A DNA stretch of 54,065 nt from Gekko japonicus (taxonomy: Eukaryota): positions 186,001 to 240,065 of the forward strand of contig NW_015165302.1 of assembly GCF_001447785.1 (NCBI RefSeq). The letters are read 5' to 3'. The notes beneath the pieces are model-generated. The model was not told the DNA's origin and ran no database searches. It worked only from the letters and a program-made list of their open reading frames with translations. The stretch's first letter is position 1; each line of letters begins with the position of its first letter. Shown piece after piece: positions 25,164-54,063 of this stretch. The position numbers and the translations under genes were made by a program.

Positions 25164-25441
25164 TTAAGAGAAGGTCAGATTAGCGGTCAGTTCTCGGATT
25201 CGGTTCTCCCTGCTCATCTTCTTGAGTTTCATTCTGCGGTTCTGAAACCATATCTTGACCTGCCTATCAGTGAGGTTAACGCTCTTACTGATCTCTAGGC
25301 GGCGCTCTCGAGTGAGATACATATTGAACAAGAACTCTTTCTCTAATTCCAGTGTTTGATGCTTAGTGTAGGGGCATCTCTTCTTTCTCCCACTCTTTGC
25401 TGTTAACCAATTGCTGGTTGGAGTATCAGACTTGATTTCCT
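25164..25441 (-). CDS. HOXD10: Hoxd10 exon 2 (homeodomain)
   Basis: [92 protein letters not shown]; acceptor ttttgctag. Confidence 0.98.
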
Positions 25442-27064: not shown

Positions 27065-27872
27065 CTTTGCTTTCCTTCTCCTGGGCTTCCGGGCTGGAGA
27101 CCGAGGCTTCGGCCAGGCAGCTCCTGTCGTCCTGGAGCGCGGACTTGGGCTCGGGGCTCTCGACTTGGGCCACTTTGGAGGAGTTGTCCGGGTGGTGGCT
27201 GTTGCCGCCGCCGCCTCCTCCTCCGCCGCCGCCTCCGCCTCCTCCTCCTCCGCCGCCGGCCGGGTTCTCATTCATCTTCTTCTCCAGGGGAAGTTGGGAG
27301 GCGAGCTGCGGCTTGGAGGCGCCGCGCGGGTTTAACTGTAACATGACAGTGGAGCTCGTTTCGGGGCTGTTATTGTACTCTTGGGCTTTCCCGGCGGCGT
27401 AGGTCTGGCTGAGCCTGAAGTAGCCGGGGACGGGGACCTCGGGGTTCTCGATGGGGCAGGAGTCCGAGACCAGCCTCTGGTAGGAAGGGACCTCGGAGGA
27501 GGAGACCAGCTTGGAGCGCTTATCGGAGTACATGCAGCAGTTCGTCTCCTCCTTAATGTTGGTGGCGAAGGAGCAGGTGGGGACCTGCTGCGTAACAGGT
27601 TGCTCTAGCCGGCAGGACCTGTTCGGGTCTGTCCAATTGTCTACTTGAGGTATATACGGATGTACATTCATACCCATGTTTTGATGGTTCACCTCCCTTT
27701 TGGCCAGAGACGGTAGCAGTCCACAGGTTTGCATCCCGTAAGTCCCAAGGTCTGTGCTGGGAGGCATGTACATGCTGGCGCTGTTGGAATAGAAACTGTC
27801 ACTCCTGCAGGCACTGATCAGCGAGTCGACTAAAAAAGTATTGGCGGCAGGAGAGCTGTTGGGAAAGGACAT
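27065..27872 (-). CDS. HOXD10: Hoxd10 exon 1
   Basis: [29 protein letters not shown]...[13 protein letters not shown]...QEKESK; donor AAAG|GTCGGT; 808+278 nt = 361 aa. Confidence 0.98.
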
Positions 27873-27922
27873 TTTGGGGAGGAATTTGAGGAAGAGAGAT
27901 GGTCTCCTTTGTAGGCTGACAT
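27830..27922 (-). other. Out-of-frame uORF overlapping the Hoxd10 start (30 aa, [20 protein letters not shown]...)
   Basis: ATG 50 nt upstream of the main ATG with G at -3; stop at 27830-27832 inside the CDS. Confidence 0.5.
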
Positions 27923-27964
27923 CTCTACGAAAACATTCCCTGTGTAATTGTGGATGCCTCCGCA

Positions 27965-28040
27965 CGACCACATGACGGCTGAGCCAATGAGATTTGAAAA
28001 TGGCCTTGAGCTGCTACCTCCCCGCCGGTCACGTGCTCCC
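27965..28040 (-). promoter_or_regulatory. Hoxd10 proximal promoter
   Basis: CACATGAC-n5-AGCCAATGA, AAAATGGC (YY1-like) and GGTCACGTG E-box. Confidence 0.65.
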
Positions 28041-47026: not shown

Positions 47027-47268
47027 CTAGTAGAGGGCGAGGGCTTGCTCTCGCATCGCCGCCCGCTTCTTCTTCATCCGCCGGTTCTGGAACCAGATCT
47101 TCACTTGCTGGTCGCTCAGGTGGAGCCGGTGGGAGAGCTCCTTCCGCTTCTGCCGGTTGATGAACTCGTGGCGGAGGAACTCGCTCTCCAGCGCGGCGAT
47201 CTGCTGCTTGCTGTAGGGCCGGCGCTTTTTCCTCGACGGCCTCCCTTGGGTGGGGCACCAGGGCAGAC
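47027..47268 (-). CDS. HOXD12: Hoxd12 exon 2 (homeodomain)
   Basis: [80 protein letters not shown]; acceptor tgttgcag. Confidence 0.95.
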
Positions 47269-52884: not shown

Positions 52885-54063
52885 TCACAGTGGTTGGTTC
52901 CCCTTCTTTTGGCGCAGCCTCTCCTGGTTCCCCTTCTGAGCTGGAACTCTCTTGTGGAGATGGACCTGCCTGTTCACAGGTGGTCTCTGCAGATTACCAA
53001 GCGAACAAGTTGTTGAAGGGGACTTCTGTAGATTCCTGAGTTGCACTGTGGACTCAGCTGGCTTAGAAGTTTGTAGGATGTTGCTTTCATCAACATGTAC
53101 CACATTGCATTCCTTAACTGTGCAAGTTTTAAGGTCTAGGATTCTGTAGCCTCTTCCTCCAAGAGCGTATCCCACGAGGATACCAAGCTCTGCTCTTGCG
53201 TCAAGTTTGCCCCTTCTCTCTTTTGGTACGTGGGCATAGAATTTAGATCCAAAGGCTTTTATGTGTTTAAGTCCAGGCACCCTATTATGCCCTAATTCAA
53301 AAGGACTTTTATTTGTAGTTTTTGATGGAACTCTATTATGAAGTTAAATGACTGTATTGACTGCTTCAGCCCAAATATTTTCTGAAAGTCCAGATTGCGT
53401 TAACATAGAATGTGCCATTTCTTGAATGGTTCTGTTTAAACATTCTGCATTTCCATTTTGTTGTGGTGAATAGGGAATTGTAGTCTTATGTACAATTCCT
53501 TCTTGTTGCACAAATCTTTGGACCTCCCCGCCACAGTACTCTGTGCCATTATCTGTAAACAGTACCTCTGGCACTTTTCCAAACTTGTTTTTAACAGCTG
53601 CAACATAGCATTTAAACTTTTCAAGCACTTGATCTTTGCTTTTAAGTAGGTATGTGTAGACATATCTGGATTTTGCTTCCATAAAACTGACAAAATACTT
53701 GCTGCCTCCAGCAGACTCCTTTATTGGACCAACAAGATCTGGGTACACAATCTCTAGAAACTTTGTATTTTGTTCTGGAGATTTGCCCTTGTAGCTAGGA
53801 GCTGTGCCTTTTGCTTTAAAGCAGGTTTCACAACCATTTTTCATAGCATCACAATCAACAGCATTGATATTACAGTCCTTCAACAGCTTTTGTATACTTT
53901 GCACACTCCTATGAGCAAACTTTACATGCCATGCATAGAAGCAGTCCTTGTGATCACATGCAGATGATTTTGTATGGTACACTGGCCCATTAGTGTCCAT
54001 TTCATCATCACTAGCAACAGCAATGTCTCTTAGATAATGACAATTTTCATGTTCTTCAATCAT
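52885..54063 (-). pseudogene. Copia integrase (zinc-binding pre-IN, DDE core, SH3-like tail)
   Basis: WHVKFAH...CETC; DLVGP, TDNGTEY, QQNGNAE; then FGSKFYAHVPKERRGKLDARAELGILVGY after a premature stop. Confidence 0.93.

What the first reader, a model, noticed from the sequence alone, without database searches (positions are those of the whole stretch)
27830..27936. Hoxd10 leader: frameshifted homologue of the HOXA10 N-terminal extension, plus a 3-codon uORF
The upstream ATG at 27922 encodes [17 protein letters not shown], resembling the 17-aa HOXA10 extension MSARKGYLLPSPNYPTT (recalled). It lies 50 rather than 51 nt before the main ATG, so it becomes a 30-aa out-of-frame overlapping uORF. 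Two nt upstream is a minimal uORF ATG TTT TCG TAG (27936-27925). A short uORF plus an overlapping uORF resembles ATF4-type control. Here the tight spacing would let ribosomes skip the inhibitory ATG and reinitiate at Hoxd10, so TSS choice could switch protein output.
Basis: partly seen in the sequence, partly recalled or inferred. Interest (0 to 1): 0.7.

Follow-up and report, generated by a model that had tools for sequence, protein, structure and literature searches.

The report
Ancient Hox10 upstream start, three fates
In this lizard's Hoxd10 limb-and-tail patterning gene, a start codon 50 bases before the real one is the same old start that opens a longer protein in the sister gene Hoxa10, but here it is out of frame and likely acts as a mild brake on protein output, a kind of brake already listed for mouse Hoxd10.

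Summary
In detail: ATGs at 27936 (3-codon uORF), 27922 (30-codon out-of-frame overlapping ORF) and 27872 (Hoxd10). The 27922 start is homologous to the first ATG of HoxA10's 17-residue extension and to a HoxC10 uORF start in the same genome. Its -50 position looks fixed across tetrapods (28 of 30 protein records that read through the leader); two teleost records place it at -52 and -53, also out of frame. A conserved, translated Hoxd10 uORF inside the CAGE-defined mouse leader is already published (Ivanov 2022, PMC8892498). The ATF4 analogy fails on geometry: 2 nt between uORF1 and the second ATG allows no stress switch, uORF1's ATG is missing in both teleost records, and the cap site may fall inside uORF1. 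The direction 'D10 lost the frame' is doubtful, because shark HoxA10 records lack the extension. Best reading: a cap-proximal, leaky, inhibitory uAUG embedded in a conserved promoter/leader element. No transcription start or ribosome data were obtained for this species. The link between the three paralogs was not found in five paper searches, nor earlier in this scan.

The parts
27994..28009 (-). 16-nt promoter block shared by HoxD10 and HoxC10 (core also in teleost D10), absent from HoxA10
27984..27988 (-). Reverse CCAAT box (ATTGG) at -116; at -116 to -122 in all five Hox10 leaders compared
   Evidence: its promoter role is inferred from Hoxa9
27969..27974 (-). E-box-like hexamer at -102; holds an extra ATG (27973) in frame with 27922, probably upstream of the main cap site
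   Evidence: promoter role inferred
27925..27936 (-). uORF1, 3 codons plus stop, ATG at -64 (G at -3, T at +4); may straddle the cap site
   Evidence: conservation in tetrapods inferred from frame-0 translations; ATG absent in teleost L004
27914..27924 (-). Paralogous Hox10 motif holding the upstream ATG (ATGTCAGCC); 9-11 of 11 bases identical to the four other leaders
27830..27922 (-). Out-of-frame overlapping uORF, 30 codons, ATG at -50 (G at -3, T at +4), stop 43 nt inside the CDS; homologous to HoxA10's in-frame first ATG
27065..27872 (-). Hoxd10 coding exon 1, main ATG at 27872 (A at -3, T at +4)
25164..25441 (-). Hoxd10 coding exon 2 with the homeobox (acceptor position approximate)

Best explanation
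The ATG 50 bases before Hoxd10 is an old Hox10 upstream start, shared with HoxA10 and HoxC10, that in Hoxd10 is out of frame and overlaps the coding sequence, so it likely diverts part of the scanning ribosomes and trims HOXD10 output by leaky scanning. Shown: the anatomy, the homology between paralogs, and conservation of position. Published for mouse: a conserved uORF in the CAGE-defined Hoxd10 leader with ribosome footprints. Inferred: the main cap site lies a few to about 15 nt before this ATG, so capture would be partial and set by cap distance and start-codon stringency (eIF1/eIF5). Ribosomes that take it would stop inside the CDS and could not make HOXD10. The 30-residue peptide is probably a by-product. 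uORF1 would matter only on longer transcripts, as a constant bypass and not as a stress switch.
For: The same motif and ATG sit at -50 (D10), -48 (C10) and -51 (A10) in the own genome and at -52 and -51 in teleost D10 and A10 loci. 28 of 30 D10 protein records that read through the leader in the main frame keep D-V-S exactly 17 codons before the Met, which places an ATG at -50 if the Asp codon is GAT; they include a caecilian and 15 named mammal records, and several unnamed records are redundant. A purine at -3 is kept in all five DNA leaders. Ivanov 2022 lists Hoxd10 and Hoxc10 among 13 Hox mRNAs with conserved uORFs within CAGE-defined leaders, each checked against aggregate ribosome profiling. 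Whichever uORF they scored, the -50 ATG is the most 3' upstream ATG and so lies in that leader (inference). The gecko stop is formed by TTA-GT in the CDS, and the teleost L004 keeps those bases.
Against: No cap-site or ribosome data for this species. Ivanov tested Hoxa1, Hoxa9 and Hoxa11 in reporters, not Hoxd10, and its SI tables could not be read. HOXD10 has no entry in the human Ribo-seq ORF catalogue held in PMC10032668's supplements. The element is constrained at nucleotide level: the first 7 codons of the A10 extension are identical between gecko and teleost, and 8 of 10 degenerate same-residue codons are identical against 35 of 79 in exon 1 (p=0.025), which fits a promoter element equally well. 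Frame and ORF length vary (30 codons in gecko, 22 in teleost L004). One Gekko kuhli gene model flagged unverified has the ATG in frame (P0055).
Confidence: 0.55

Rival explanations
1. The conserved stretch is a core-promoter or start-site DNA element shared by Hox10 paralogs. Its ATG is incidental, lies so close to the cap that most ribosomes pass it, and has little effect; HoxA10's extension would be a tolerated by-product too.
For: Identity at silent positions exceeds the coding background, and 6 of 8 changed codons in the A10 extension alter the residue. CCAAT box and E-box sit at fixed distance, identical (-116, -102) in gecko and teleost D10 despite internal indels. By analogy with Hoxa9 (CAAT box about 60 nt before the main start) the cap would fall near -56. 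The frame after the ATG differs among paralogs and lineages.
Against: Ivanov 2022 reports footprints on every scored uORF. The A10 extension is exactly 17 residues in 89 of 91 records that have one (only in-frame cases can be seen this way). The two readings are not exclusive.
Confidence: 0.3
2. One reading: uORF1 is in the mRNA, ribosomes translate it, skip the ATG 2 nt later and reinitiate at Hoxd10 52 nt downstream, so the choice of start site switches output; in the strong form this is ATF4-like stress control.
For: uORF1 appears kept in tetrapods: 27 of 28 records keep E-C-F 22 codons before the Met. Its absence from both teleost records fits Ivanov's label 'mammals to tetrapods', so it may be the uORF they scored. 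Three codons is a length that permits reinitiation (recalled).
Against: 2 nt of spacing gives a constant bypass, not a switch, and low ternary complex would lower reinitiation at a start 52 nt away, the opposite of ATF4 (mechanism recalled). Hoxa10 has the homologous ATG in gecko and teleost yet is not among Ivanov's 13 genes, which suggests caps downstream of it (inference). The A10 counterpart's stop is not conserved (2 vs 90 codons).
Confidence: 0.12
3. The 30-residue overlapping peptide, or an extended HOXD10 made by a ribosomal frame change, has its own function.
For: D10 vs A10 mismatches lean to third positions in the upstream frame (8 of 14, p=0.058). A Gekko kuhli model is in frame.
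Against: Teleost L004 shifts frame within the leader and gives a different 22-residue product. 1 of 120 D10 records and 0 of 115 C10 records show an in-frame MSA-type extension.
Confidence: 0.03

Closest known systems
Conserved inhibitory Hox uORFs sensing start-codon stringency (Ivanov et al. 2022, PMC8892498; Hoxd10 and Hoxc10 listed)
   Same: Same gene, short leader, AUG without G at +4, conserved across tetrapods.
   Different: The main text gives no anatomy or reporter test for Hoxd10 and never names Hoxa10. The homology to HoxA10's in-frame start is added here. An overlapping ORF allows no reinitiation, whereas the paper expects partial reinitiation after the 7-21 codon uORFs it tested.
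HoxA10 17-residue N-terminal extension of bony vertebrates
   Same: Homologous ATG and leader; 10 of 17 residues identical in the own genome.
   Different: In frame at -51 and harmless to output; in D10 at -50 and out of frame. Not annotated in sharks, rays or chimaera.
ATF4 two-uORF delayed reinitiation (recalled; reviews seen only as search listings)
   Same: A 3-codon uORF followed by an out-of-frame uORF overlapping the CDS.
   Different: Spacing is 2 nt instead of roughly 90 nt (recalled), so there is no window for ternary-complex-dependent choice; uORF1 may be cut by the cap site.
Hyperconserved Hox 'leaders' that are promoters with E-box and CAAT box (Akirtava et al. 2022, PMC9456764)
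   Same: Adjacent CCAAT box and E-box just upstream of a short leader.
   Different: The passages seen do not mention Hoxd10 or Hoxc10; here the question concerns the transcribed side.

Membership tests
Conserved inhibitory Hox uORF (Ivanov 2022) | AUG-initiated uORF upstream of a Hox main ORF | tested here: met
Conserved inhibitory Hox uORF (Ivanov 2022) | Suboptimal context (no purine at -3 and/or no G at +4) | tested here: met
   G at -3 and T at +4 for both uATGs; definition
Conserved inhibitory Hox uORF (Ivanov 2022) | Conserved across species | tested here: met
   DNA for gecko and one teleost; indirect for 28 of 30 records read in the main frame
Conserved inhibitory Hox uORF (Ivanov 2022) | Inside the capped leader | tested here: inconclusive
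   Published for mouse Hoxd10 without my seeing which uORF; no read data laid for this species
Conserved inhibitory Hox uORF (Ivanov 2022) | Translated, and lowers main-ORF output in an eIF1/eIF5-sensitive way | not testable with these tools
   Footprints stated for all scored uORFs; reporters reported only for Hoxa1, Hoxa9, Hoxa11; HOXD10 absent from one human Ribo-seq catalogue
ATF4-type delayed reinitiation | Short reinitiation-permissive uORF1 plus out-of-frame uORF2 overlapping the CDS | tested here: met
ATF4-type delayed reinitiation | Enough distance between uORF1 stop and uORF2 start for reinitiation at uORF2 in unstressed cells | tested here: not met
   2 nt; requirement recalled
ATF4-type delayed reinitiation | uORF1 present in the main transcript | tested here: inconclusive
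   Cap site unknown; indirect arguments point both ways
ATF4-type delayed reinitiation | Induction upon eIF2-alpha phosphorylation | not testable with these tools
   needs reporters or stress ribosome profiling
Homologue of the HoxA10 extension | Alignable leader at the same position, above chance | tested here: met
   0 of 5000 shuffles reach the score; five-leader alignment
Homologue of the HoxA10 extension | In-frame state ancestral and lost in D10 | tested here: inconclusive
   Against: 0 of 15 listed cartilaginous-fish A10 records extended. For: third-position bias p=0.058. No shark or lamprey DNA seen

The most novel reading that the evidence does not exclude
One upstream AUG older than the vertebrate Hox cluster duplications was kept in all three Hox10 paralogs and only its reading frame diverged: harmless and in frame in HoxA10, a short terminating uORF in HoxC10, a dead-end overlapping ORF in HoxD10. 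The frame of this single codon, together with cap distance, would set paralog-specific protein yield from similar promoters, and the HoxA10 extension would be a uORF captured into the protein in bony vertebrates.
Probability: 0.25. Interest if true: 0.6.

Novelty: already known. Interest (0 to 1): 0.3.

Why it matters
Hox10 proteins act together and by dose in lumbar, sacral and hindlimb patterning (recalled). If one shared upstream start taxes the paralogs differently, equal mRNA levels would not mean equal protein, and a one-base change in the leader could shift dose. It also offers a clean natural test of how an N-terminal extension and a uORF turn into each other, and of whether hyperconserved Hox leaders are kept for transcription or for translation. 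The existence of a conserved Hoxd10 uORF is already in print, so the gain is an evolutionary link and a sharper test, not a new system.

Tried and rejected
Cap-site mapping: a run search listed 24 runs, no holder on record as RNA; no reads or contigs were laid (searches gave no data), and the partial word shares of unlaid runs are not used as evidence. Assembly error as the cause of the 50-nt spacing: rejected by identical spacing in other tetrapods. Genome-wide pattern search for the motif plus a downstream ATG: 177 matches against 31 for the control, many in repeats; uninformative. Folding the leader gave only weak structures (-12 to -13 kcal/mol over about 100-110 nt, no shuffle control); not pursued. 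TISU-type short-leader initiation was considered from recall and dropped: +4 is T, not G. Metagenome scan for host Hox10 DNA gave 3 loci from 26 pattern matches, all teleost-like; no shark or lamprey DNA. Papers: PMC8892498, outline with abstract, sections 6 and 12, term passages and four spreadsheet supplements seen, SI PDF with Tables S1-S2 too large to read and likely decisive; PMC9456764, 12 of 20 term passages; PMC10032668, supplement hits only; PMC5600399, supplement hits only, no coordinates; Mudge 2022 not held; the paper reader closed, so PMC13275300's supplements were not seen. Searches for a paralog link in print: none reported it in the listings; most subscription journals are not covered. 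Earlier scan notes: nothing by place, none naming Hoxd10.

Full report
What the window is. The minus strand carries a posterior HoxD cluster (homeoboxes at 47230, 37554, 25385 and 19488). The gene in question is Hoxd10; the closest named protein is a gecko's (91% identity), so I call the organism a gecko by likeness.

The observation. A third ATG at 27973 lies in an E-box, in frame with 27922. Such ATG counts and an open overlap are common by chance in a leader of this composition, so the evidence had to come from comparison.

Paralogs in the same genome. A protein search of the own genome gave three matches: Hoxd10, HoxC10 (L002) and HoxA10 (L003). All three have ATGTCAGCC upstream of the main start, at -50, -48 and -51, and a reverse CCAAT box at -116 to -122. 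In A10 the ATG is in frame and adds 17 residues, 10 identical to the D10 upstream peptide. In C10 it is in frame but meets a stop after 10 codons. In D10 it is out of frame. Beyond the 9-mer the D10 and A10 leaders still align better than all 5000 shuffles; D10 vs C10 is weaker (56 of 5000) and A10 vs C10 not significant (1219 of 5000). The homology claim therefore stands on tool evidence and extends to a third paralog.

Other species. No vertebrate genome collection was available, so I used two indirect routes. First, some D10 protein records start at a far upstream Met and so translate the leader in the main frame. Of 30 such records (8 of the 120 listed, the rest from cluster members), 28 keep D-V-S 17 codons before the Met and 27 of these keep E-C-F at 22, as the gecko does. 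They include a caecilian and 15 named mammal records; several unnamed ones are redundant. This fixes the spacing but shows the ATGs only if the codons match the gecko's. The two exceptions are a teleost-like record with 18 codons (ATG at -53, same frame) and a Gekko kuhli model, flagged unverified, that reads the upstream ATG in frame. Second, a metagenome scan returned three teleost-like loci. D10 locus L004 keeps the ATG at -52, in the other frame, giving a 22-codon overlapping ORF, and lacks uORF1's ATG. A10 loci L005 and L006 keep the in-frame extension; L005 has the uORF1-type ATG at -67 followed by a stop after 2 codons, whereas in gecko A10 it opens 90 codons. So the second ATG is the stable feature, and the ORFs behind either ATG are not.

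Which state is older. The A10 extension is in 91 of 120 listed records, 89 of them exactly 17 residues, from teleosts, bichir, gar, coelacanth and lungfish to mammals. It is absent from all 15 listed members of a 25-member shark, ray and chimaera cluster (14 start at the second Met, 1 is partial), and no C10 record of 115 has it; a lungfish C10 record implies the ATG at -46, out of frame. One gain in bony-vertebrate HoxA10 is simpler than several losses, but this rests on annotations, and a third-position bias between D10 and A10 (8 of 14, p=0.058) points weakly the other way. 'Frameshifted relative to HoxA10' is right; 'lost the frame' is unproven.

Protein or nucleotide constraint. Between gecko and teleost A10 the first 7 extension codons are identical base for base; 8 of 10 degenerate same-residue codons are identical against 35 of 79 in exon 1 (p=0.025), and 6 of 8 changed codons alter the residue.

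What is published. Ivanov et al. 2022 (PMC8892498; abstract, sections 6 and 12 read) mapped caps in mouse somites and list Hoxd10 and Hoxc10 among 13 Hox mRNAs with conserved uORFs, kept from mammals to tetrapods, each checked against aggregate ribosome profiling. Hoxa10 is not named in the main text. The SI tables could not be read, so I do not know which D10 uORF was scored; either way the -50 ATG is inside that leader. Their reporters on Hoxa1, Hoxa9 and Hoxa11 show inhibition that follows eIF1 and eIF5 levels. HOXD10 is absent from the human Ribo-seq catalogue in PMC10032668's supplements, while a HOXC10 uORF there reads through the same motif.

Where the cap lies. Not measured here: no reads could be laid. 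In Hoxa9 the CAAT box is about 60 nt before the main start (PMC9456764, passage); applied to D10 this gives about -56, inside uORF1. Hoxa10's absence from Ivanov's list, although it has the uORF1-type ATG, also suggests caps just before the second ATG. Against this, the label 'tetrapods' matches uORF1's distribution, and the human HOXC10 uORF starts about 16 nt further upstream. The question is open.

Mechanism. Most likely (0.55) the -50 AUG, with a purine at -3 but near the cap, captures a share of ribosomes; these end 43 nt inside the CDS and cannot make HOXD10, while the rest scan on to the main AUG. Cap distance and stringency would tune the share. The main rival (0.30) is a conserved start-site DNA element with an AUG of little effect; both may hold in part.

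Verdict. A real, conserved feature whose core is already in print. The added point, one old upstream AUG read three ways in three paralogs, was not found, nor in earlier scan notes. Interest 0.3.

Noticed in passing
window 27973-27830 (-); L004: The ATG inside the E-box opens a 47-codon ORF ending at +43 in both gecko and teleost L004; CCAAT (-116) and E-box (-102) distances to the main ATG are identical although internal indels differ, so total promoter-to-start spacing seems constrained.
   Followed up: partly
P0055 (Gekko kuhli, KAL8183519.1): An unverified gene model reads the upstream ATG in frame with HoxD10 (17 residues); either a real reversion in a related gecko or homopolymer errors in that assembly.
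   Followed up: no
P0035, P0371-P0384, P0386: Many placental HOXD10 models are 70 residues longer, starting at a Met upstream of the CCAAT box; likely annotation artefacts given the short CAGE leaders.
   Followed up: partly
window 20831 (-): Hoxd9 has an out-of-frame ATG 13 nt before its start that opens a 12-codon overlapping ORF; Hoxd9 is not among Ivanov's 13 uORF genes.
   Followed up: no
L003, 67 nt before the second HoxA10 Met: Gecko HoxA10's uORF1-type ATG opens a 90-codon out-of-frame overlapping ORF, against 2 codons in teleost L005.
   Followed up: partly
window 53344-54063 (-): Retrotransposon integrase fragment (Pfam rve E=2e-12, gag_pre-integrs below its cut-off) just beyond Hoxd12; transposons in squamate Hox clusters are known (recalled).
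   Followed up: partly
window about 27205-27258 (-): A run of about 18 glycines in Hoxd10 exon 1, longer than in a close unnamed relative (P0002) and absent from birds; HoxA10 (L003) has a longer one.
   Followed up: no
PMC10032668 supplement, ORF c12norep81: A human HOXC10 Ribo-seq uORF called young and de novo reads through the ancient Hox10 motif in another frame.
   Followed up: no
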